Below, piece by piece: positions 31,171-41,530 of a stretch of DNA of 64,000 nt (its first letter is position 1; each line of letters begins with the position of its first letter). The notes under the pieces were generated by a model, which did not search any database, had not been told where the DNA came from, and saw only the letters and a program-made list of their open reading frames with translations. This DNA is from an uncultured Actinomycetes bacterium (GTDB lineage: Bacteria; Actinomycetota; Thermoleophilia; UBA2241). The stretch covers positions 224,001 to 288,000 of the forward strand of contig CAVRZA010000003.1 in the NCBI GenBank assembly GCA_963725665.1, written 5' to 3'. A program made the position numbers and the translations under genes.

Positions 31171-33023
31171 GTGAATGCAGAGGTGTCACCTCCGCACGAC
31201 GCAGGGGACACCTCCGGTAACCCAGATCCCAGGCGGATCGCCCCATTCCTGTCTCACCACCCGCTTCTCGAGGGCCTTAGCCGTGACGATCGCGAGAGAA
31301 TGGCCGAGATGGTCGTCGTGCGTTGCGTGCCGGCGGGCGAGTCGGTCCTCGTCGAGGGCGGGCCGCCAGGTACGTATCTCTTCGTCGTCGTGGAAGGGTC
31401 GATGGAAGTCCTGGCCGGGGGCCTTGTCGTCGACGTGCTGACGAGTGGGGAGGTGTTCGGCGCCCCGACCCTGGTCACGGGTCTTGCCCCAGGGTTCTCG
31501 GTTCGCGCGCGCGAAGGCTCGACGTTGTATCTCGTCCCTCGAGAGGCGGCGATCGAGCTGCTCCTTCGCCCTGAGGGGGTCGCATTCGTGGTGGCGTCCT
31601 TGCGAGACCGGCTCGTTCACACCTCGCGGACGTTCAGATCGGTCGCCGACCCGCGGAGCGTTCCCGTTTCTTCTCTCATCCGTCGCGCGCCTGTCATCTG
31701 CCAGGCCGACACGCCCATTCGCGACGTGGCCATGATCATGAGCCAGGAGGTCGTAGCCGCTGTCCTCGTGGAGACCCGCCAGGGTCTCGGCATCGTCACC
31801 GACGCCGATCTGCGCGACAGAGTACTGGCCGCTGGATTGTCGGCGCATGCTCCGGTCGGCTCGATCACGACCACTCCGGTCCGCACCATCAGCGCCGAGC
31901 GCCTGGCGCCCGAGGCGAGCATCGAGATGATGCAAGCCGGCATCAACCATCTGGTCGTCATCGATGCCGCTGGTGGCGTGCTCGGCATCGTTTCGGCCGG
32001 CAGCCTGATGGCCCCCGATGCGCTGAGCCCCTTCGCTCTGCGCTGGTCGATCCTGGCTGCACGCAGCGTAGACGAGGTCGTCGAGGCGGCCATCCGTCTG
32101 CCAGAGGTGTTCGTCTCACTCACCGACCAGCACCTAGACGCCCCGACGATCTTGCGCGTGGTCACGCTGGTGGTCGACACGCTTACGCGCCGCTTGCTCG
32201 AACTCGCCGTCCGGCAGCTGGGACGGCCGTCTGTTCCCTACGCTTGGCTTGCTCTCGGCAGCGCCGCGCGCAGCGAGCTCACCCTCGTCTCCGACCAGGA
32301 CAACGCGCTGGCCTATGCCGACTCGGACGACCCCTCGGTCGACGCGTACTTCGAGCGACTGGGAGAGGCGGTTAACGATGGCGTGGCACGCTGCGGCTTT
32401 GCGGCCGATCAGTCGGGAGTGCTGGCTCGAGATCCGCACTGGCGCATGTCCCGGTCCGACTGGGTGCATGTCTTCCAGGAGTGCTACGACGTGTGGGACT
32501 GGGAGCACGCAGCGCGGGCCTGCGTGGCCTTCGACTTCCGCTGTATCGACGGCGATCTGGACATCGTGACCCCTCTGACCGAGGTCGTGCTGAGGGCTCC
32601 CGACCATCCCGCGCTGTTGAACCGGCTCGCCCGTTCGGTGGTCGATACACGTTCGCCCCTCGGCTTCCGCCAGCACTTGCCCGATCGGGTTGACATCAAG
32701 AGGAGCGCTCTGCTGCCAATCGAGAACATCGCGCGCTACTTCGCGCTTGCGAATCGGATCACCGTGCCGGCGACGTTGGATCGTCTCACCGCCGTGGAGG
32801 AGCTGGCCATTCTCGAGACCGAGATAGTGATCGCCCTGCAGGAGGCCTACCGCGCCATGGCTCACCTCCGGCTGCGCCACCATGCAGACGCCATCGAGAG
32901 GGGCGACGCGTTGACGACACCATTGACACGACTACGCTACAGCCGTTGGCACGCGTGGAAGTGCACGAGGCACTGCGGCTGATTGCGGCCGCCCAGAAAC
33001 GGGTGCCACTCTACGTGACGTGA
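31171..33023 (+). CDS. cNMP-binding + CBS pair + DUF294 nucleotidyltransferase-like protein, copy 1 (apparent frameshift near 32900)
   Basis: GEVFG, GIVTDADLR, ALGSAARSELTLVSDQDNAL, FDFR, DIK. Confidence 0.85.
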
Positions 33024-33167
33024 GGTCGAACGGCCCTCGCTGGCGGTCGGTGATGCATCCCTTGTCGCAAGTCCGGGCTCGAGGATGCCCGCGATGTGGC
33101 GAGGGGTCGACGCCAGGGTAGACTCAAGATCGCGGCGGCTCCGCGCGAGCGCCCTCCAGTAGCGGGA

Positions 33168-35058
33168 GTGAGTCATGGCCACAGAACGGCCAGCCGAACA
33201 GCGCGACGAGCGCATCGCCTTCTGCTCGACGACGTGCGGCGGATAGCGATCTTCCTGTCGCGAGTGCCTCCGTTCAACGGACTCAACCGGCGCGAGCGCG
33301 AGCGGATAGCCGCCTCGGTCGAGAAGTGGGAGCTGGCGCCGGGAAGCGTCCTCCTCGTCGAAGGCGGCCCGCCGGGCACCCGTCTGTTCGTCGTCTTCGA
33401 CGGTGTCCTCGAGCTGACGACCAGGGGACAGGTGATCGACGTCGTCACGAGTGGCGGTCAGTGGTGGGTCACCCGAGCTCTCGTCACCGGTCTCGCGCCC
33501 GAGTTGACGGTGCGGGCTCGCGACCAGGTCGTTCTTTACGCGATCCCTCGGACGATCGCCATCGACGTGCTCAGCCGCCCGCAGGGGGTCGCCTTCGTGA
33601 CCGGCACTCTGCGCGAGCGGCTCGTGCGCACGGCGCAAATGATCGAATCGGCTTCTGACCAGACGAGCGGCCCGTGTCGTCGCTCATCCGCCGCCCCCCG
33701 TGATCTGCAGCCCCGATACCCCGGTGCGCGAGGCGGCGCGAGATGATGAGCGCCCAAGTCGCAAGCGCCATTCTCGTCGAGACACGCGAGGGTCTCGGCA
33801 TCGTCTCCAACGCCGACTTGCGCGACAAGGTCGTCGCCCTCGGCGTCTCTCCCGACACTCCCGTCAGCTCGATCATGACGACGCCTGTGGTGACCGTACG
33901 CGGCGACCAGCTCGCGACGGAGGCCGGCATCGAGATGATGCGCGCGGGGATCAACCACCTGGTGGTCGTCGACGCGCGCGAACGTGTGCTCGGAGTCATA
34001 TCGGCTGCGAGCCTGATGAGTACGGATGCGCCAGCCCGCTGGTCTTGCGCTCGGCTATTACCGCGGCTCACGATGTGGAGGAGGTCGTTGAGGCGGCGAA
34101 GCTCATGCCACAGGTCTTCGTCTCACTCGTCGATGCGCGTCTCGATGCACCGAGCCGTCTCGCGCATCATCACTCTGCAGAGCGACTCGCTAACGCAACG
34201 TCTTGCTGGAACTCGCCATCGAACGTCACGGTCCGCCGCCTACGCCTTTCGCCTGGCTTGCCCTCGGCAGCGGAGGACGCGGTGAGCTGACGCTGGCCTC
34301 GGACCAGGACAACGCTTTGGCGTACGCGGACTCCGACGACCCGGAGGTCGACTCCTACTTCGAGGGTCTGGCCGCCGACGTCAACGGAGGCTTGGCTCGC
34401 TGCGGGTTCGAGCTCGACGTCTCCGGAGTGCTGGCGAGCGACCACCACTGGCGCATGTCGCGATCGGACTGGGTCAGGGTCTTCAGGGAGTGCTTTGAGG
34501 TCTGGGATCTCGAGCACACGCTGCGAGCCAGCGTTGCCTTTCGATTTTCGCCAGGTCGCCGGTGATCTCGACGTCGTCACTCCGCTCGTGGAGGTGCTTC
34601 TCGATGCGCCAGACCATCCTTCGCTCCTCAACAGGGTCGCGCGGACAGTGACCGACATCCGCTCGCCGCTCGGCTTTCGGCAGCGTCTGACGGGACCAGT
34701 CGATATCAAGAAGAGCGCGCTTCTGCCCATCGAGAACATGGCTCGCTACTTTGCGCTCGCCAACAGGGTGACCGTCTCTGCCACTCTCGACCGTCTCTCC
34801 GCCGTGCAGGAGCTGGGCGGTTTCGGGGCGACGACGGCTGCCGAGCTGCCCGAGGCATACCGGGCGGTGTGGAACCTGCGGCTGCGCCATCACGCCAATG
34901 CCGTTCGCGCCGGTCGTCGCATCGACGACGCCATCGACTCGACCCAGCTTCGCCCACTGACGTACGCGGAGCTGCAGGAGGCCCTGCGGGTCATCGCGTC
35001 GGCTCAGAAGCACGTGCCCGAGATCGTAATGCCGAGAGACATGGAGCGGATGGCGTAG
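33168..35058 (+). pseudogene. cNMP + CBS + DUF294 protein, copy 2, broken by several frameshifts (pseudogene or sequencing errors)
   Basis: Fragments at 33096, 33700, 33743, 34203 and 34495 align in order with copy 1. Confidence 0.6.
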
Positions 35059-35126
35059 CGCGCCCTTGCGAGCGTACGTGGGCCGCAGCTCGCATGTGGC
35101 GGCGTTTGTGATTCAGGTGACATAAT

Positions 35127-35378
35127 GGCTGCACTGAGTCGCGGACTCCGGTTTCCCGATCCGGGCTGGCGCCGGTCGGTGTCCACCTTGCAGGGTGGGA
35201 CGACGCTTAGCACGGCGGCGGGAGGCTCGTTAGGTGAAGGTGCCATCGACACGCCGGCAGAACGGCTCGACGCACTCGAGCTGACCGCGGGCACGGCCTC
35301 GGTCGGCCGCCGCCCCACCCACCTCCTTAGCGAACCAGTCACCCCGGGCTCTACTTACGCAACGGAGGTGTGACCTAA
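35127..35378 (+). promoter_or_regulatory. Structured mtbB leader with anti-SD and anti-anti-SD
   Basis: CACCTCC 35320-35326 is complementary to SD GGAGGTG 35364-35370; 35224-35242 can pair alternatively with 35320-35336; CATAAT at 35121. Confidence 0.5.
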
Positions 35379-36779
35379 GTGAGCAAGATACTGACCCGCA
35401 TGGGGGACGGCAGCTTCGTCGAGCTGACGCCCGACGAACTTCGTGCAGACATCGTCGCGGCTACCGAAGATGCGGCCGACAAGGGCAAGATCCCTCCCTT
35501 GCAGGACGACGAGATCGACAAGCTCGTCGAGATATTCTCCGCGCCGTGGCGCGTGATCGGGGTCGAGCCTGGTCACGAGGTTCCCCTCACCAAGGATGAG
35601 ACGGCGTGCACCCTTGTTTCATCGCAGCTGTCGAGTGGCGCTCACCTGCCGATCAGCCGTGAGGCGGCGGTCGAGATCTTCGAGCGCGTGTTCGCCTTCG
35701 ACACCATGGAGCTGGGCTGGATCGACTACTCCTTCAAACCGGCGAAGGCGATGGTCTCGCTCGACCAAGTGTCGATCGAGCGCCTGCTCGCTACGACGGT
35801 CTTCCCGGTTCTCTACGGCGCGATGCCCAACATGGGCCTCTACTACACGCCGGACGGGCCTTTTACGAACCCCGCCGATCTGCTCGGCATGATGAAGATC
35901 GCCGAGGCGCGCGAAGAAGAGATGAAGGCCGCCGAGATGTGCATGGAAGACATGATCTACATGTGCAAGCGCTTCGATGAGATCGGCGCCGACGGCATCG
36001 ACTTCGATACGACCGCATCGGCCGGCGACGCCGACTTCTGGGCGACGCTGAAGACCGTCGAAGAGCTCAAGAAGACGACCAAGCTGGGCATCGAGGTCGG
36101 CATGTCCGGCGAGTTCATCCTCGGCATGCACGGCGAGGTCGAGTACAACGGCAAGAAGCTCGCCGGCATGTTCCCGCACCAGCAGCTCAAGGTCGTGGAG
36201 GAGGCCGGCGCCGACATCTTCGGCCCGGTCGTCAACACCAAGACCAACAAGTCGGCGCCGTGGAACGTCGCTCGCGCCGTGACCTTCGTGAAGGAAGTCT
36301 GCAAGCAGGCCAAGATCCCGATCCACGCCAACGTGGGTATGGGCGTGGGCGGCACACCCATGTTCGAGACACCGCCGGTCGACGCCCTTAGTCGAGCCAG
36401 CGTGGCGATGGTCGAGATCGCCAAGGTCGACGGGTTGTAGGTTGGCGTGGGCGATCCCTTCGGGATGTCCGTAACTCACGCGATTGCCTCCGGCATGGGT
36501 GGCATTCGTACCGCTGGAGATCTGGTGGCGCGGATGCAGCTCAACTACCGGATGAGGCTCCCCGAGGCGAAGAAGTACGTCGCCGACAAGCTTCACGTGA
36601 GCACCTTCGACCTGTCGGATTCGACCGTCATGCGCAACCTGCGCGAGGAGCTCGATATCGGCTGCGTCGAAGCCATCCCCGGCCTCGCCAAGGGGCTGGC
36701 GGCGAAGGCTCGCATCGCCGATCTTCTCGATATCAAGATCGAGTGCGTCGAGAAGCTCAAAGCGAAGATGCCGGCCTGA
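35379..36779 (+). CDS. mtbB: Dimethylamine:corrinoid methyltransferase MtbB with pyrrolysine (TAG 36438-36440, codon 354)
   Basis: ORFs 35379..36440 and 36447..36779 are in frame; [27 protein letters not shown] matches the MtbB Pyl site; [17 protein letters not shown]. Confidence 0.93.
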
Positions 36780-36834
36780 CGCGCAAGGCGAGAGCCCCAG
36801 GGTTGACGCAATCCGATTGTTGGAGGTCACAGGC

Positions 36835-37479
36835 ATGGCAAACGAAGAGTTCTTCGCCGAGGCAAACGCGGCGATCAAGGCGTGCGACAAGGAGAAAGCC
36901 ATCGCTGCCGCCAAGCGCGGGCTGGCGGCGGGCATCCCGCCCGACGAGATGCTGAAGAAGGGCTTCGTCGTCGGCATCTCTGAGATGGGCGACCTTTTCG
37001 AGCGCGGCGAGGTTTTCCTTCCGGAGCTCGTCCTTGCGGCCGACGCCATGATGGGCGCCGCCGAGGTGTGCAACGCGGCGCTGCCCGAGGGCAAAGGCGA
37101 GAAGAAGGGCACCGTAGTCATCGGGACCGTTCAGGGAGACGTGCACGACATCGGCAAGACGATCGTCGTCGCGTTCCTGCGCGCGAACGGTTACGACGTT
37201 CACGACCTCGGCCGCGACGTCGCGGGCGCCAAGTTCATCGACAAGGCCGCCGAGGTCAACGCGGACGTCGTCGGCATGAGCGCTCTCCTGACGACCACCA
37301 TGCGCGAGCAGATCAGGGTGCTCGATGCAATGAAGACGGCCGGCGTGCGCGACAAGTACAAGGTCATCGTCGGCGGCGGCGCATCGACCCAGAAATGGGC
37401 CGACAAGATCGGCGCCGATGCTTACGCGGAGGACGCCAACGACGGCGTGAAGAAGATCAACGAGCTCACCGGCAACTGA
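36835..37479 (+). CDS. mtbC: Cognate corrinoid protein (MtbC-like)
   Basis: GTVQGDVHDIGK, SALLTTTM; follows mtbB. Confidence 0.88.
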   Translation: MANEEFFAEANAAIKACDKEKAIAAAKRGLAAGIPPDEMLKKGFVVGISEMGDLFERGEVFLPELVLAADAMMGAAEVCNAALPEGKGEKKGTVVIGTVQGDVHDIGKTIVVAFLRANGYDVHDLGRDVAGAKFIDKAAEVNADVVGMSALLTTTMREQIRVLDAMKTAGVRDKYKVIVGGGASTQKWADKIGADAYAEDANDGVKKINELTGN

Positions 37480-37633
37480 CCGGTCGGTCCGGTCGGATGA
37501 CGAGCGGCGCGGCCCGAGGCGAGAGTCTCGCCTCGGGCCGCGCCCGTGGACGGTGGGCAAGGCGCCATTTCGGGGACTGGAGGCGCAGGTCGGGTGCTGG
37601 AGGCTCGAGCGGTCGGTGGCCTGGAGATACGCG

Positions 37634-37662
37634 TTGTCCCTAGGCACTCCCTTCTGTACAGT
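37634..37662 (+). promoter_or_regulatory. Sigma70-like promoter for the second permease
   Basis: TTGTCC-N17-TACAGT. Confidence 0.5.
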
Positions 37663-37851
37663 TCCGCAAAGGAGAGCGCTCCAGGGGGTCGAAGGACATC
37701 GGCTGAGTGGCGATCGAGCGATCGACCGAGCGAGGGCTCGAGTGTCGAGGAAGGGAGATCATCCAGGACGAGTAGCGTGAGCTAGGCCGCTGACACACGG
37801 CCGTTACCAGCTGTTGGTGTAGTTGTGACATTCGACCAGGGGGAACAGCCA

Positions 37852-39501
37852 ATGGCAGAAGACCAAAGCTCCGAACGGTGGCAAACGTCGGATGTGACCG
37901 ACAAGTACCTCTCCGAATACTCGGACGAGTACAAGCAATCGCGTTTCAAGACCAACATGCGCCGCGACATCAGCTGGGTCGGCGCCTTCTTCGTCGCCGC
38001 CGGCGTGCCGGCGCTCATCTTGTTCTCGATGGGCGGCATCTCGGCCGGCACCGGGCCGGTGGCCGTGCTCGTGTGGACGCTCTCTGTGCTGGTCGGCTTC
38101 GTCGACGCCTTCATCTTCGCCGAGATCGCGGGGCTGCACCCGAAGAAGTCGGGCGGTACCGCCGTGCACGGCGCCACCGCCTGGATCCGCTACATCAGGC
38201 CGGCGGCTCCGATCTCGCTGTGGTGCAACTGGCTCGCCTGGACGCCGGTGCTGGCACTCGGCTCCGGTCTCTGTGCGGGGTACCTGCTGTCGGTCTTCTT
38301 CGCTCCAGACGCCACGATCAACACGTGGACGATCGACCTCGTCAATCTCAATTTTCTCAAGAGTGGGCTGGAGCTGCGCATCAACGCCGTGTTCATCCTC
38401 GGCGCGCTCATCATGCTCGCGGTCTGGAACATCCAGCACTACGGCATCCTGCGCACTGCGCGCGTGCAATTGGTGCTCACGATCGGGGCGATGACGCCGC
38501 TGCTGGTGCTGACCCTGGTCCCGCTGTTCACCGGCGATGTGGTGATGAGCAACTTCTCGCCCTTCGTGCCCGTCAACGGCTCGTGGAACATCGACGGCTG
38601 GACGGCGTTCCTGGGCTCCTTCTTCATCGCCGCCTGGTCGGCCTACGCCTTCGAGACGGCCATCTGCTACATGAGCGAGTTCAAGAACCCCGGGCGCGAC
38701 CAGGCCAAGGCCATCCTCTGGTCGGGTGTGTTCTGCATCTTCTGCTACACCTTGATCCCGTTCGTCTGGCAGGGCGTCCTGGGCACCGACTACATGCTCA
38801 AGCCCGAGATCTACTCGGGAGCCGGCGTTCCCGCGGGCTTCGCGGCCATGTTCAACTTCGGCGCTTGGTTCACGAAGTTCTGCGCCATTGCCATGTTCTT
38901 CACCGTGATGCTCTCGGTGATGACGGCCATGTCCGGCTCGTCCCGCACGCTGTTCCAGGGCGGCCAAGACGGCTGGCTGCCAAAGTACCTCTCGCACCTC
39001 AATGAGCACAAGGTGCCGACCTGGGCCATGTGGACCGACCTCGTCTTCAACCTCTTCCTGCTGCTGATGTCGGACTACGTCTTCGTGCTCGCCGTCTCCA
39101 ACTGCAACTACATGATCTTCAACTTCCTCAACCTCAACGCCGGCTGGATCCACCGCAAGGACAACTCCAGGGTTCCGCGGCCCTTCAAAGCTCCGATGCC
39201 GCTGTTCGTGCTGGGAACGAGCTTCGCCTACCTGAACATCTTTCTGTTCGGGGCCGGCGCGAACTTCTGGGGCGCGGGCACGTTCTGGATGGGATGGATC
39301 TCGGCCCTGATCGCACTGCCGGTCTTCTACTACCGGCACTACGTCACAGACAAGGGCAAGTTCCCGGTGCACATGTTCGACGACCTCATCCCTGAGGGAG
39401 AAACGGCGCTCGGACCGACCACGTGCGGTGTGCTGCCCTACGTCGCCATAGCCGGCGGCCTGGCGTGCATGACCATCGGCTACGTGATCTTCTGGGTCTG
39501 A
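37852..39501 (+). CDS. APC-family permease, MtbP-like (putative dimethylamine uptake)
   Basis: AGVPALIL, FAEIAGLHPKKSGG, WSAYAFE, RPFKAP; 12+ TMs; follows mtbBC. Confidence 0.85.
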   Translation: MAEDQSSERWQTSDVTDKYLSEYSDEYKQSRFKTNMRRDISWVGAFFVAAGVPALILFSMGGISAGTGPVAVLVWTLSVLVGFVDAFIFAEIAGLHPKKSGGTAVHGATAWIRYIRPAAPISLWCNWLAWTPVLALGSGLCAGYLLSVFFAPDATINTWTIDLVNLNFLKSGLELRINAVFILGALIMLAVWNIQHYGILRTARVQLVLTIGAMTPLLVLTLVPLFTGDVVMSNFSPFVPVNGSWNIDGWTAFLGSFFIAAWSAYAFETAICYMSEFKNPGRDQAKAILWSGVFCIFCYTLIPFVWQGVLGTDYMLKPEIYSGAGVPAGFAAMFNFGAWFTKFCAIAMFFTVMLSVMTAMSGSSRTLFQGGQDGWLPKYLSHLNEHKVPTWAMWTDLVFNLFLLLMSDYVFVLAVSNCNYMIFNFLNLNAGWIHRKDNSRVPRPFKAPMPLFVLGTSFAYLNIFLFGAGANFWGAGTFWMGWISALIALPVFYYRHYVTDKGKFPVHMFDDLIPEGETALGPTTCGVLPYVAIAGGLACMTIGYVIFWV

Positions 39502-39651
39502 GAGCCGCAATGTAGCGCGCCGGCCGTGCGGCCGTCGCCGGCCTGCGGAGCGGCCGGCGACGGTTGGGCTAGACGGCGCAACAAGAGGGGCCGCGGCGGA
39601 GGCGAAGAGCCTCCGCCGCGGCCCCCACGTCTTGGGGCGCCGTTTCGCGGC

Positions 39652-40092
39652 CTAGACGACGAGGACCGGGATCCCTCCCGCCTCGTGGAGCACCCTGGAC
39701 GTCGTCGAACCCAATTGGGTCCGTTCGCCCTCACGAGCGCCCGCGCCCTTGGCACCGACGACGATCATGTGGGCGCCGATATCTTGAGCTATGTTGACCA
39801 CCGCCACGTCGGGCCGGTCGGGGGTGCAGGCAGTCGCCACTGCGACCCCGGCCTCTCGGACTCGTCCCGCAGCCAGATCGAGCTCGGCTTCGATCTGTTT
39901 CGAGACCTCGTCCCACAGCTCCTCGACCCCCATCTCTGGGCCGCGGAACCCGATGGCCGGTGCGGGACGATCCTGCGCGCAGGCGATCGTGATCTGGCCG
40001 TCGGGCATCAACTTGGCGATCTCGACGGCGGTGTCGAGAGCTTTGATCGAGTTCGCAGAGCCGTCGTATCCAACAACGATGTTGTAGGCCAT
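39652..40092 (-). CDS. Universal stress protein
   Basis: IVVGYDGS, IVVGAKG, LGSTTSRVL, PVLVV. Confidence 0.9.
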   Translation of the reverse strand: MAYNIVVGYDGSANSIKALDTAVEIAKLMPDGQITIACAQDRPAPAIGFRGPEMGVEELWDEVSKQIEAELDLAAGRVREAGVAVATACTPDRPDVAVVNIAQDIGAHMIVVGAKGAGAREGERTQLGSTTSRVLHEAGGIPVLVV

Positions 40093-40224
40093 CCCGCTTC
40101 CCCCTTGGTCCCAGATGTATGCGCCAACCTATACCCGGCCCAGCCGTACGGCAATCGAAGGAAGGTCTCAACCTCCTCGGGCAGCATGAGTCGTCGTGGC
40201 CGTCAGCCCTGGCCGGGATGCAGG

Positions 40225-41028
40225 CTACTCCAAGAGCCCGGCGCGATGAGCCTTGAGGTAGTTGCCGCAGTAGGGGTCCTCGCCGCGCAGCGCCTCGGCG
40301 GCCTTGATGGTGGCCAGCATCTCCTTGTTGCGCACGTCGAGCACGGCGCCGTCGATGCCCAGGCCCATGCACATGGCGACGAAGGTGCGGTTGAGCAGGG
40401 GGCGGTTGGGCAGGCCGAAGCTGACGTTGGAGAGGCCGCCGATGGTGCGCACGGGGAGGCGCTCCTTGACCATCCTTAGGGTCTCCATGGTGATCACGCC
40501 GGCGCTGGAGTCGGCCGAGACGGTGAGCACCAAGGGATCGACCCAGAGCTCGGCGGCGGGCAGGCCGGCGGCGGTCACCAGCTCGTGCATCTTGGCCGCC
40601 ACGGCGAAGCGCTCGGCGGCCGTCGCGGGCACGCCCTCGTCGGAGAGGCAGAGGCCCACCACGGAGCAGCCGTGGGCCTTTATCATGGGCAGGGCGGCGT
40701 CGATGCGCTTCTGCTCGCCGCTGATGGAGTTGATGAAGGGCACCTGGCCACCGCCGGCGAGGGCCGCCTCGACGCCGGCCCGTAAGGCCTCGGGGCTGGC
40801 CGAGTCGACCATGAGGCGCCGCTGCGAGACGCTGCGCACCGTCTCGATGAGCCAGCGCATGTCGGCCACCTCGTCGCCGCCGGCCACGCCGGCGTTGACG
40901 TCGAGGACCGCGGCGCCCGCCTCGTCCTGCTCTCGCGCGAGGCCCTTGATGAACTCGGCGTCGCGCGCCGAGATGGCCTCGCCCACCTGCTTACGTGTAC
41001 CGTTGATCGATTCACCCACGAGCAGCAT
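40225..41028 (-). CDS. Methyl-corrinoid:tetrahydrofolate methyltransferase (AcsE/pterin-binding family)
   Basis: [35 protein letters not shown]; RBS GGAGG. Confidence 0.88.
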
Positions 41029-41122
41029 CTTCCAGGACCTCCACGTACGAAGCCGGTGTGTGAGAGCTGATTCTAACCCTCGCGGCGACCGAGACAACCG
41101 GTTGGCCGCCTCAGTGGGCCTT

Positions 41123-41151
41123 TTGCGCCCGTTGGGCAAGTCTGCTACAGT
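41123..41151 (+). promoter_or_regulatory. Sigma70-like promoter of rplS
   Basis: TTGCGC-N17-TACAGT with extended TG. Confidence 0.55.
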
Positions 41152-41185
41152 ATCCGCCGCGTTTCGTCCCGAGAGAGGCCCTCAC

Positions 41186-41530
41186 GTGACCGTCATCGAC
41201 AACATCGAGCGTCAGCAGCTGCGCGACGACATTCCGCAGTTCAAGGCCGGGGACACGGTCAAGATCCACTTCCGCGTTGTCGAGGGCAGCCGGCAGCGCA
41301 CGCAGATCTTCCAGGGCATCGTGATCAAGCGCCAGGGCGCCGGCGTGCGCGAGACGTTTACCGTGCGCAAGCAGTCGTTCGGCGTCGGCGTCGAGCGCAC
41401 CTTCCCGCTGCATTCACCCAAGATCGAGAAGATCGAGGTCGTCATGATCGGCGACGTGCGACGGGCGAAGCTCTACTACCTGCGCCAGAAGGTCGGCAAG
41501 CAGGCGAGGGTCCGCGAGAAGCAGCGCTAG
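41186..41530 (+). CDS. rplS: 50S ribosomal protein L19
   Basis: [34 protein letters not shown]. Confidence 0.97.

What the first reader, a model, noticed from the sequence alone, without database searches (positions are those of the whole stretch)
35127..35378. Candidate novel translational switch in the mtbB leader
Seen: OFF state, CACCTCC-TTAGCG (35320-35332) pairs with CGC-AAC-GGAGGTG (35358-35370) and hides the SD, compatible with GGCGGCGG (35214-35221) pairing CCGCCGCC (35307-35314). ON state, GGCTCGTTAGGTGAAGGTG (35224-35242) pairs with 35320-35336. An 82-codon ORF (35125-35373) also spans the region and stops at the SD. Inference: a riboswitch or attenuator with unknown ligand (DMA, Pyl, tRNA-Pyl or corrinoid).
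Basis: partly seen in the sequence, partly recalled or inferred. Interest (0 to 1): 0.7.

Follow-up and report, generated by a model that had tools for sequence, protein, structure and literature searches.

The report
mtbB leader: masked ribosome site, short uORF
The stretch is the long untranslated leader of a dimethylamine methyltransferase gene, in which the ribosome-binding site is folded away and a small upstream reading frame, rather than a metabolite-sensing RNA, most likely decides when it opens.

Summary
The gene is a true pyrrolysine-type mtbB. Taken alone the signals are modest. Fold z-scores are -0.42 and -0.76. The anti-SD hairpin ranks in the top 4-6% of 967 strong-SD genes. 9% of shuffles match the ON helix. 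Comparison changes the picture. Orthologous mtbB genes in related Thermoleophilia carry 230-280-nt leaders with the same layout. Each has a purine-rich SD-like box and a start codon at -139 to -148. This opens a short uORF that runs into a C-rich tract read as R-x-P-P. The uORF stops on or next to an anti-SD, or at the mtbB SD. An objective rule finds this in 20 of 27 unique leaders, against 13 of 788 background genes. No Rfam family matches, no aptamer-like core is conserved and there is no terminator. I therefore read it as translational control by SD masking, coupled to a proline-rich, arrest-type uORF (like CutF-cutO or SecM-secA). I do not read it as a riboswitch. In this window the uORF start and the anti-SD:SD hairpin are intact. 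However, the uORF stops after 16 codons, and RPPPHPPP-TAG lies in the +1 frame. This copy is either degenerate or mis-assembled. The 82-codon ORF has no coding signature.

The parts
35119..35130 (+). Inferred promoter -10 region (gACATAATGGCT). The implied transcription start is about 35131-35136.
   Evidence: The 11-mer ACATAATGGCT occurs once in the 3.73-Mb genome. It stands at the matching position in orthologous leaders L170/L172 and L178, behind TTGACG with a 17-nt spacer. The tool's own sigma-70 rule finds TTGACG-17-TACATT in L065 but nothing in the window or in L170. This is inferred; there are no RNA data for this organism.
35133..35378 (+). 5' leader of mtbB, about 245 nt and non-coding by composition.
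   Evidence: It lies between the stop of the upstream pseudogene (35058) and the mtbB GTG at 35379. G+C is flat across the three codon positions. Leaders of 230-283 nt from the inferred promoter are seen in 20 of the 22 orthologous leaders for which a promoter pattern was matched.
35182..35199 (+). Small hairpin, CCACC / GGTGG with loop TTGCAG.
   Evidence: It aligns with a CTCCCC / GGGGAG hairpin of L194 at the same place. Both arms differ but still pair (two sequences only).
35214..35225 (+). G-rich box GGCGGCGGGAGG. It is the SD-like site of the uORF and a partner of the C-rich tract.
   Evidence: The duplex with a 16S-tail motif is -11.0 kcal/mol, and the box lies 8 nt before GTG 35234. 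GGCGGCGG:CCGCCGCC gives -17.4 kcal/mol. A comparable purine-rich box precedes the uORF start in the other leader types.
35234..35284 (+). Short uORF: GTG, 16 codons (MKVPSTRRQNGSTHSS), TGA.
   Evidence: The start is at -145, the same position as in type A leaders and within the family range of -139 to -148. Only 4 of 966 background genes have a start at -149 to -138 behind an SD of <= -10 kcal/mol. Here the frame stops at -97, long before the C-rich tract.
35304..35330 (+). Frame reading R-P-P-P-H-P-P-P followed by TAG (35328-35330). It is +1 relative to the uORF and in frame with mtbB.
   Evidence: Seen in the three-frame translation. It is equivalent in position to the RxPP or PP-stop ends of uORFs in relatives. 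L194 has ..YQPP-TAG at -50 within CCTCCGTAGCGA, against CCTCCTTAGCGA in the window. There is no ATG, GTG or TTG in this frame after TGA 35235-35237 (read).
35320..35332 (+). Anti-SD CACCTCC (35320-35326) plus GCG (35330-35332).
   Evidence: It forms 7+3 pairs with 35358-35370 at -15.1 kcal/mol. It is the main partner of the SD in the ensemble. Contigs of relatives in runs X1-X3 keep CCTCC and the TAG. X2 has T>G at 35327, which adds one more pair.
35358..35370 (+). CGC plus the mtbB Shine-Dalgarno GGAGGTG (35364-35370), 8 nt before the GTG.
   Evidence: P(paired) is 0.96-0.99. The SD block ACGGAGGTGTGAC is conserved in orthologues.
35379..36779 (+). mtbB, dimethylamine:corrinoid methyltransferase, with an in-frame TAG (Pyl) at 36438-36440 and the PYLIS element at 36438-36537.
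   Evidence: TIGR02368 scores 560.7 bits against a cut-off of 369.1. Rfam PYLIS_2 scores 89.3 bits.
35125..35373 (+).
   Evidence: G+C by codon position is flat. There is no family match. Its ATG lies within the inferred -10 box. Caveat: the family's uORFs also have flat composition, so composition alone cannot exclude translation from the internal TTG at 35188.

Best explanation
The region 35133-35378 is the roughly 245-nt 5' leader of a pyrrolysine-type mtbB operon (mtbB, mtbC-like corrinoid protein, amino-acid permease) in a Thermoleophilia genome. It is built like the leaders of the orthologous mtbB genes of related genera. These have a promoter about 250-290 nt upstream. About 145 nt before mtbB there is a purine-rich SD-like box followed by a start codon. 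This opens a short uORF of 26-48 codons in most. The uORF runs into a C-rich tract read as R-x-P-P. The tract is itself an anti-SD, or lies next to one, and that anti-SD pairs with the mtbB SD. Proposed mechanism, with each step marked: (1) Predicted, and consistent across relatives: in the resting RNA the mtbB SD is base-paired, so translation is OFF. In this window the pair is 35320-35326 with 35364-35370. (2) Inferred from the family: a ribosome translating the uORF slows or stalls at the R-x-P-P or Pro-stop end. There it sits on the anti-SD, frees the mtbB SD and lets mtbB be translated. In the type A leaders the uORF instead runs through the SD and stops 7 nt before the start, which is direct coupling. 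(3) Inferred: the G-rich box can also pair with the C-rich tract. The uORF's own ribosome site and the mtbB site therefore compete for one anti-SD. (4) Unknown: the signal. It could be intrinsic or EF-P-dependent pausing, or a small molecule acting on the nascent chain. This window copy keeps the -10 motif, the G-box, the start at -145, the anti-SD:SD hairpin and the Pro-rich frame ending in TAG just after the anti-SD. However, its uORF stops after 16 codons, and the Pro-rich frame is one base out of register. In this genome the coupling is either broken, leaving a mostly masked SD, or the assembly carries a one-base error.
For: Gene identity. Long leaders with a clear promoter in orthologues. 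SD masking: the window has P(paired) 0.96-0.99. The 28 leaders have a median of 0.94 against 0.72 for 967 strong-SD genes of the same genome (Mann-Whitney p=3e-5, but the leaders are related and not independent). A perfect anti-SD of 7 nt or more occurs in 7 of 28 leaders against 35 of 967 genes. The RNAalifold consensus of each leader type contains an SD-masking helix. For the uORF I used an objective rule: take the start codon with the best SD in -175 to -120. This rule puts the start at -139 to -148 in 24 of 27 unique leaders. 20 of 27 have a frame that reaches an RxPP or PPP motif. The same rule succeeds in 13 of 788 background upstream regions. The distance from the start to the motif differs between lineages (66-87 nt) but always by multiples of three. 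The start codon changes between ATG, GTG and TTG while staying a start. 12 of 27 uORFs end in Pro-stop on or beside an anti-SD, and 7 end at the TGA next to the SD. Window-specific points: a start at -145 behind an SD of -11.0 kcal/mol is seen in 4 of 966 background genes. The 11-mer in the -10 box is unique in the genome and shared with L170 and L178. CCTCCTTAGCGA in the window matches CCTCCGTAGCGA in L194. Precedent from papers, passages read: RxPP with x = S, A, G or P stalls elongation, and SecM stalling opens an SD-hiding stem-loop (PMC7897499). RAPP-like uORFs are widespread and not limited to sec/yidC genes (PMC10987492). [quoted passage not shown]
Against: In the window itself the uORF ends at 35282-35284, and the R-P-P-P-H-P-P-P-TAG frame has no start codon. 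The proposed coupling therefore cannot run as written here. The uORFs show no coding signature. Variable columns by codon position are 24/25/27 (type A), 24/24/26 (type B) and 9/11/11 (type C). Pooled G+C by codon position is 0.70/0.66/0.73. The leader body has no detectable sequence homology to other leaders by blastn in 88 family genomes, nor by nhmmer profiles of types A, B, C or all together (best E=5.4). Membership therefore rests on layout and position. The anti-SD:SD helix has no compensatory changes. In types A and B the C-rich tract has a mismatch to the SD, and a different pyrimidine tract does the masking. The test for co-adaptation of the G-box and the C-tract was inconclusive, and the window's own pair is weaker than cross pairs. 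7 of 27 leaders fail the rule (window, L194, L063, L064, L198, L187, L062). Four orthologues have no long leader at all, because mtbC lies 50-60 nt upstream (L058, L167, L168, L169). There are no RNA-level, ribosome-level or reporter data for any member, and the transcription start is inferred.
Confidence: 0.5

Rival explanations
1. An RNA-only three-part switch (G-box, anti-SD, SD) is set by a small ligand, as in a translational riboswitch. The uORF-like frame would then be a by-product of G-rich and C-rich pairing partners.
For: The OFF and ON pairings exist and have similar strength, -15.1 and -17.7 kcal/mol. The best upstream partner of the C-rich tract falls in the G-box zone in 11 of 14 leaders. 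The type A consensus pairs GGAGGC with GUCUCC. The uORFs have no coding signature. 5' hairpins with compensatory changes exist in type A leaders, with 6 of 11 pairs changed.
Against: No Rfam family matches in the window leader or in six orthologous leaders. No sequence block outside the SD region is conserved across leader types, whereas aptamers keep a conserved core. Fold energy is not beyond shuffles. The ON helix is matched by 9% of shuffles and is not kept in L194. This reading does not explain the start codon kept 5-9 nt behind the G-box, nor the in-frame RxPP motif (20 of 27 against 13 of 788).
Confidence: 0.12
2. This is a constitutively structured leader. The SD hairpin tunes mtbB translation or mRNA stability, or is opened by a trans-acting protein, a small RNA or temperature. 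Neither a uORF nor a ligand plays a role.
For: SD masking is the only feature common to all leader types. In the window the uORF cannot reach the anti-SD. 35 of 967 genes in this genome have comparable anti-SD matches, so such hairpins are not rare.
Against: The conserved position of an SD plus a start at about -145, and the in-frame Pro-rich end, need a separate explanation. No candidate trans factor was identified. The palindrome seen at other mtbB paralogues is absent here.
Confidence: 0.2
3. This is a chance structure in decaying intergenic DNA. The leader lies next to a frameshifted pseudogene and has no regulatory role in this genome.
For: The upstream DUF294-type gene is broken by at least four frame changes. 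The uORF is out of register with the Pro-rich frame. z-scores are not significant. Relatives' contigs diverge upstream of 35285-35304.
Against: Rare positional features occur together here: the unique 11-mer, a start at -145 (4 of 966) and an anti-SD of 7 nt or more (3.6%). The anti-SD, the TAG and the SD are kept in three related strains and in L194. mtbB itself is intact and keeps its PYLIS.
Confidence: 0.15

Closest known systems
CutF-cutO of Rhodobacter capsulatus: stalling at a C-terminal poly-proline motif opens a stem-loop that shields the downstream ribosome site (bioRxiv 10.1101/2025.02.05.636593; abstract and passages read)
   Same: An upstream reading frame ends in a PPP-type motif just before an mRNA structure that hides the SD of the next gene. 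The proposed unmasking is by a paused ribosome, and EF-P is a possible modulator.
   Different: CutF is a secreted DUF2946 protein with a signal peptide and a Cu-binding CxxxC sensor. The uORFs here are 26-48 codons long with no signal peptide or recognisable sensor. Here the Pro codons themselves form, or abut, the anti-SD. The downstream gene is a cytoplasmic methyltransferase.
RAPP/RAGP-type arrest peptides: SecM-secA, ApdA, ApdP, ApcA, YwcI (PMC7897499 and PMC10987492; passages read)
   Same: There is an R-x-P-P motif near the C-terminus (RPPP, RSPP and RAPP occur here) with no other sequence conservation. The location is upstream of the regulated gene. For SecM, an SD-hiding stem-loop is opened by the stalled ribosome.
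   Different: Those peptides are 80-200 residues long with an N-terminal export or membrane signal, and they monitor Sec/YidC activity. For ApcA, ApdA and ApdP no SD-hiding hairpin was predicted. [quoted passage not shown]
Short ligand-sensing leader peptides such as TnaC (PMC8429421, seen only as a search listing and the start of its abstract; other details recalled)
   Same: The size is similar, a few tens of codons, so the whole nascent chain sits in the exit tunnel. 12 of 27 uORFs end in Pro-stop, as TnaC does (the TnaC detail is recalled).
   Different: TnaC acts through Rho-dependent transcription termination, not SD masking (recalled). No ligand is known here, and the peptide sequence is not conserved across leader types.
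Translational riboswitches (SD-sequestering expression platforms; Rfam release 15)
   Same: Both have mutually exclusive anti-SD:SD and anti-anti-SD:anti-SD helices.
   Different: No aptamer was found: there is no Rfam match and no core conserved across leader types.

Membership tests
Metabolite riboswitch (any Rfam family) | Match to a curated covariance model | tested here: not met
   cmscan of 33000-38000 at E<=10 gives only PYLIS_2 inside mtbB and chance-level hits elsewhere. Six orthologous loci at E<=1 give only PYLIS_2 plus one sub-threshold snoRNA hit.
Metabolite riboswitch (novel class) | Conserved structured aptamer core with covariation across distant members | tested here: not met
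   The leader body has no homologue in 88 family genomes. nhmmer profiles of the other leader types do not find it. Fold z-scores are -0.42 and -0.76. Helices with compensatory changes exist only within single leader types, for example the 5' hairpin of type A.
Metabolite riboswitch (novel class) | Ligand-dependent change of structure | not testable with these tools
   Needs in-line probing or SHAPE with candidate ligands.
Arrest-peptide / poly-proline uORF with SD-masking stem-loop (SecM, CutF kind) | Translatable uORF with its own SD and start upstream of the regulated gene | tested here: met
   In the window, GGGAGG at 35220-35225 lies 8 nt before GTG 35234, with -11.0 kcal/mol. In the family the start is at -139 to -148 in 24 of 27 leaders. 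In the background 4 of 966 genes have such a start.
Arrest-peptide / poly-proline uORF with SD-masking stem-loop (SecM, CutF kind) | R-x-P-P or PPP stalling motif in frame near the uORF end | tested here: not met
   In the window the uORF stops after 16 codons, and RPPPHPPP-TAG is in the +1 frame with no start. In the family the feature is met in 20 of 27 leaders, against 13 of 788 background regions.
Arrest-peptide / poly-proline uORF with SD-masking stem-loop (SecM, CutF kind) | mRNA structure that hides the downstream SD and overlaps the stall or stop site | tested here: met
   35320-35326 pairs with 35364-35370, with P(paired) 0.96-0.99. In L194, type C and L184 the stop codon follows the anti-SD directly.
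Arrest-peptide / poly-proline uORF with SD-masking stem-loop (SecM, CutF kind) | Demonstrated ribosome stalling and dependence of the downstream gene on it | not testable with these tools
   Needs toeprinting, in vitro translation and reporters.
Monitoring substrates (SecM, MifM, ApdA class) | N-terminal signal or membrane segment and a size of 80-200 residues (search criteria quoted in PMC7897499) | tested here: not met
   The uORF products are 16-62 residues long, and none shows a hydrophobic N-terminal stretch in the printed sequences. No dedicated signal-peptide predictor was run.
Ribosome-mediated transcription attenuator (trp/his leader kind) | Intrinsic terminator hairpin with a U-tract before the gene | tested here: not met
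   0 terminator-like sites were found in window 34800-35600, in the L170 leader and in the L065 leader.
MtbB (dimethylamine:corrinoid methyltransferase, Pyl-containing) | Equivalog model above cut-off, in-frame TAG, PYLIS | tested here: met
   TIGR02368 scores 560.7 bits against a cut-off of 369.1. There is one in-frame TAG at codon 354. PYLIS_2 scores 89.3 bits.

The most novel reading that the evidence does not exclude
The short uORFs of this leader family could be ligand- or tRNA-sensing arrest peptides that tie mtbB translation to its substrate or to pyrrolysine supply. The nascent chain is 26-48 residues long and ends in R-x-P-P(-stop), so it sits wholly in the exit tunnel. It could sense dimethylamine the way short leader peptides sense tryptophan or ornithine. 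In the window, L194, L069 and the X1-X3 relatives the Pro-rich frame ends in UAG directly after the anti-SD. There, competition between release factor and Pyl-tRNA(Pyl) could decide the outcome. Either the ribosome stops on the anti-SD, or it reads on through the SD hairpin to the stop that abuts the mtbB start (TAA at 35376-35378 in the window). Translation of a Pyl enzyme would then depend on Pyl decoding capacity.
Probability: 0.06. Interest if true: 0.9.

Novelty: new variant of a known kind. Interest (0 to 1): 0.5.

Why it matters
Bacterial pyrrolysine-type methylamine methyltransferases are known mainly from genomes, and how they are switched on is largely unstudied. My searches listed no paper that links mtbB or pyrrolysine genes to a leader, uORF or arrest peptide. 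Each listing shows only the top-ranked papers, and supplements were closed. If the family-level reading holds, R-x-P-P arrest-type control would extend from secretion and copper genes to a catabolic, genetic-code-expanding enzyme in Actinomycetota. It would do so with very short uORFs whose proline codons double as the anti-SD. That gives a compact and testable system of toeprints and reporters. For this window the practical message is narrower. It is not a new riboswitch. The local copy looks damaged. The 82-codon ORF should not be annotated as a gene.

Tried and rejected
Rfam scans of the window leader and of six orthologous loci found no leader family.

Homology searches with the leader DNA gave nothing beyond the SD and the first codons. 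This covers blastn in 88 family genomes and nhmmer profiles built from types A, B, C and all leaders, with a best E of 5.4 at 35287-35345.

A codon-position test for purifying selection on the uORF peptides was negative, and uORF G+C by codon position is flat. An early impression of synonymous-only differences between two type C leaders did not hold for the whole set.

A test for co-adaptation of the G-box and the C-tract, comparing own duplex energy with cross-leader energy, was inconclusive. The window, L194, L069 and L182 scored worse than cross pairs.

I rejected the idea that a conserved TGA at the SD marks a single conserved uORF stop. L060, L064, L068 and L069 lack it, L063 and L066 have TAA there, and L062 has a TGA in another frame.

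I found no support for the idea that a TAG uORF stop is special in a Pyl-decoding genome. TAG ends 374 of 967 strong-SD ORFs, against 541 for TGA and 52 for TAA. Types B and C use TGA.

The palindrome ATCCACC-NN-GGTGGAT, seen behind the promoters of other mtbB paralogues, is absent from this leader. The genome has 5 hits with 2 or fewer substitutions and none is here. The window's TCCACC-N6-GGTGGGA has a different spacing.

Programmed +1 frameshifting to join the uORF to the Pro-rich frame was considered and dropped. No slippery codon or internal SD lies before TGA 35282 (read).

Reads: no public run holds more than a quarter of the sampled words of 34600-35900. Contigs of four runs cover only 35285, 35294 or 35304 onward plus the pseudogene end. 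They come from relatives with 11-18 differences each. The uncovered 35024-35271 says nothing either way, and the one-base register question could not be settled. An RNA-library contig of a relative (X3, 397 nt) spans from 69 nt before 35285 to 35612. This is only a weak hint that the leader is transcribed.

The other seven mtbB paralogues of the genome do not show this uORF layout. Supplementary files of the papers were not opened and may hold lists of RAPP-like uORFs that bear on novelty.
Full report
**What is there.** The window is G000:C3:224001-288000 of a 3.73-Mb genome with 68% G+C. The titles of orthologue-bearing records label this lineage Thermoleophilia. The gene that starts at GTG 35379 is a true dimethylamine:corrinoid methyltransferase. 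TIGR02368 scores 560.7 bits against a cut-off of 369.1. There is one in-frame TAG at codon 354, followed by the PYLIS_2 element at 89.3 bits. Downstream lie an MtbC-type corrinoid protein (36817-37479) and an amino-acid permease (37825-39501). Upstream lies a DUF294/CBS/cNMP gene (31171-32982). Between that gene and mtbB is a second copy of it, which aligns to the first only through at least four changes of frame, so it is a pseudogene ending at 35058. The finding therefore sits in a 320-nt intergenic stretch directly before mtbB.

**Checking the observation.**
- As duplexes, the OFF pairing gives -15.1 kcal/mol, GGCGGCGG:CCGCCGCC gives -17.4, and the ON pairing gives -17.7.
- The ON partner is the best partner of 35320-35336 anywhere in the leader.
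- The minimum-energy fold contains the OFF hairpin. A fold with the SD forced open is 4.6 kcal/mol less stable.

On this one sequence the statistics are weak.
- Fold z-scores are -0.42 and -0.76.
- 9% of shuffles give an equally strong ON duplex.
- I collected 967 ORFs of the same genome with GGAGG before the start and GC3 of at least 0.8. Of these, 35 (3.6%) have a perfect anti-SD of 7 nt or more within 150 nt. The predicted SD pairing of mtbB (0.99) is in the top 5-6%. This is unusual, but a genome of this size will hold many such cases.

The 82-codon ORF exists. Its G+C by codon position is 0.68/0.66/0.73, against about 0.6/0.4/0.9 in mtbB, mtbC and the permease. It has no family match.

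**Relatives.**
- The genome has eight mtbB paralogues.
- True orthologues of this one (84-95% identity) were found in 13 genomes of the same family and on about two dozen metagenome contigs.
- The leader DNA itself finds nothing in 88 family genomes except the last 40-55 nt, which are the SD and the first codons. Profile HMMs of the other leaders do not find it either.
- Four orthologues (L058, L167, L168, L169) have mtbC directly upstream and no long leader.
- After removing duplicates, 28 leaders remain. They fall into three sequence types (A with 7, B with 6, C with 8) plus singletons: L069, L182, L178, L194, L062, the short L181, and the window.
- Most show a TTGAC-N17-TACAT(T/A) promoter 230-283 nt before mtbB.
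- The window shares the 11-mer ACATAATGGCT with L170 and L178 at the -10 position. This 11-mer occurs once in the whole genome. That places the likely start near 35131-35136, downstream of the ATG of the 82-codon ORF.

**The shared layout.** I applied one rule to every leader: take the start codon with the strongest SD in -175 to -120.
- The start falls at -139 to -148 in 24 of 27 leaders (L181 was left out as too short). The window's GTG 35234 is at -145, behind GGGAGG (-11.0 kcal/mol).
- In 20 of 27 the frame so opened reaches an R-x-P-P or PPP motif in the C-rich tract at about -70 to -45. The motif reads RPPP in types A and B, RSPP in type C and L069, and RAPP in L178 and L182.
- The same rule succeeds in 13 of 788 upstream regions of background genes.
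- The seven failures are the window, L194 (ends YQPP-TAG), L063 (PRPPT), L064 (needs the second ATG), L198 (early stop), L187 (start lost) and L062 (a different leader).
- Distances from the start to the motif differ between lineages but stay in frame.
- 12 of 27 uORFs end with Pro-stop on or beside an anti-SD. Seven end at the TGA that follows the SD. Four run on past the mtbB start.
- A start at -149 to -138 behind an SD of -10 kcal/mol or better is seen in 4 of 966 background genes.

**SD masking in the family.**
- Predicted SD pairing has a median of 0.94 in the 28 leaders, against 0.72 in the background. The leaders are kin, so the p-value overstates the case.
- The masking partner differs by type. 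It is a perfect CCTCC(G/T) tract at -44 to -59 in the window, L194, four type C leaders and L184. In types A and B it is a CTCCG or pyrimidine tract at -36 to -20.
- On a 10-sequence alignment the distal helix is paired in 81% of cells, against 42-52% when slid. There are no compensatory changes, because the SD is invariant.
- L194 is the closest long-leader relative. Its CCTCCGTAGCGA matches the window's CCTCCTTAGCGA, and its uORF ends ..QPP-TAG exactly there.
- Contigs of three related strains keep CCTCC, the TAG and the SD. One has T>G at 35327, which is silent in the Pro frame and adds a pair. They diverge from the window upstream of 35285-35304.

**Interpretation.** The best reading is translational control by SD masking coupled to a proline-rich, arrest-type uORF. 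A ribosome slowed at R-x-P-P or at Pro-stop sits on the anti-SD and frees the mtbB SD. In type A the uORF reads through the SD and stops 7 nt before the start. Passages I read support each element as a known kind.
- RxPP (x = S, A, G, P) stalls elongation, and SecM stalling opens an SD-hiding stem-loop (PMC7897499).
- RAPP-like uORFs are widespread and share nothing but the motif (PMC10987492).

The G-box can also pair with the C-rich tract (11 of 14 leaders).

**What speaks against it.**
- The uORFs have no coding signature, neither in third-position variation nor in G+C by codon position.
- The same papers warn that most RAPP-like motifs do not stall.
- Most important for this window, the uORF stops at 35282-35284 after 16 codons. 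R-P-P-P-H-P-P-P-TAG (35304-35330) lies in the +1 frame, which is also the mtbB frame, and has no start codon. One base fewer in 35237-35281 would make a regular 31-codon member.
- I could not decide between a real frameshift and an assembly error. A real frameshift would fit with the pseudogene next door.

**Riboswitch and other rivals.**
- The riboswitch reading is weak. There is no Rfam match, no core conserved across leader types, and no excess fold stability. There is no terminator for a transcriptional attenuator.
- An RNA-only switch cannot be excluded.
- A merely structured leader cannot be excluded either.
- Chance in decaying DNA also cannot be excluded.

**Verdict.** The anti-SD hairpin is supported by relatives. 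The riboswitch label is not supported. At family level this is a new variant of a known kind: a proline-rich arrest-type uORF with an SD-masking stem. The local copy is atypical.

Noticed in passing
window 33096-35058: A second DUF294/cNMP-type gene lies next to the intact copy at 31171-32982. It aligns to that copy only through at least four changes of reading frame (tblastn frames 3, 2, 1, 3, 1), so it is a pseudogene directly upstream of the mtbB leader.
   Followed up: partly
L014, L015, L018, L022, L034, L005, L002 (upstream of other mtbB paralogues); G000:C2:303311 and C2:512495: A 16-bp palindrome of the form ATCCACC-NN-GGTGGAT sits just behind TTGACA-N17-TAAGAT-type promoters of several other mtbB paralogues. 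In the own genome there are 5 hits with 2 or fewer substitutions. Two of them lie 55-130 nt before mtbB paralogues. It looks like an operator for an unknown regulator. It is absent from the leader studied here.
   Followed up: partly
whole genome G000: TAG ends 374 of 967 strong-SD, high-GC3 ORFs, against 541 for TGA and 52 for TAA. Yet the genome carries eight mtbB genes with in-frame TAG. TAG is therefore not avoided as a stop in this Pyl-decoding lineage.
   Followed up: no
G000 and relatives: mtbB is highly multiplied. There are 8 matches in this 3.7-Mb genome and up to 15 in relatives of the same family. 22 of 24 family genomes searched have a match, against 1 of 16 genomes of other families in the class.
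   Followed up: no
type C leaders (L170, L179, L180, L185, L173, L068), about -139 to -49 before mtbB: The uORF product MPEVV(R/S)..(W/C)LL(P/A)D(L/R)(K/R)A..P....(S/G)(P/G)RSPP is nearly constant in six leaders from different samples. L198 has an early stop and L187 has lost the start, so broken copies occur elsewhere too.
   Followed up: partly
type A leaders (L059, L066, L067, L070, L177, L189), -281..-271 with -228..-218: An 11-bp hairpin right after the inferred transcription start shows compensatory changes at 6 of 11 pairs in the RNAalifold consensus. It is the best-supported helix in any of the leaders, and its function is unknown.
   Followed up: no
window 40304-41530 and 39526-40479: The ORF holding the ribosomal protein L19 domain is 408 codons long, with the domain only at residues 297-406, so its real start is probably much later. 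The 317-codon ORF before it has no Pfam or NCBIfam match.
   Followed up: no
L167, L168, L169, L058: The closest orthologues (92-95% identity) have the gene order mtbC-mtbB with a 50-60-nt spacer, instead of mtbB-mtbC with a long leader as in the window. L167 still keeps the ACTCCGCGCTTTTC block before the SD in its short spacer.
   Followed up: no
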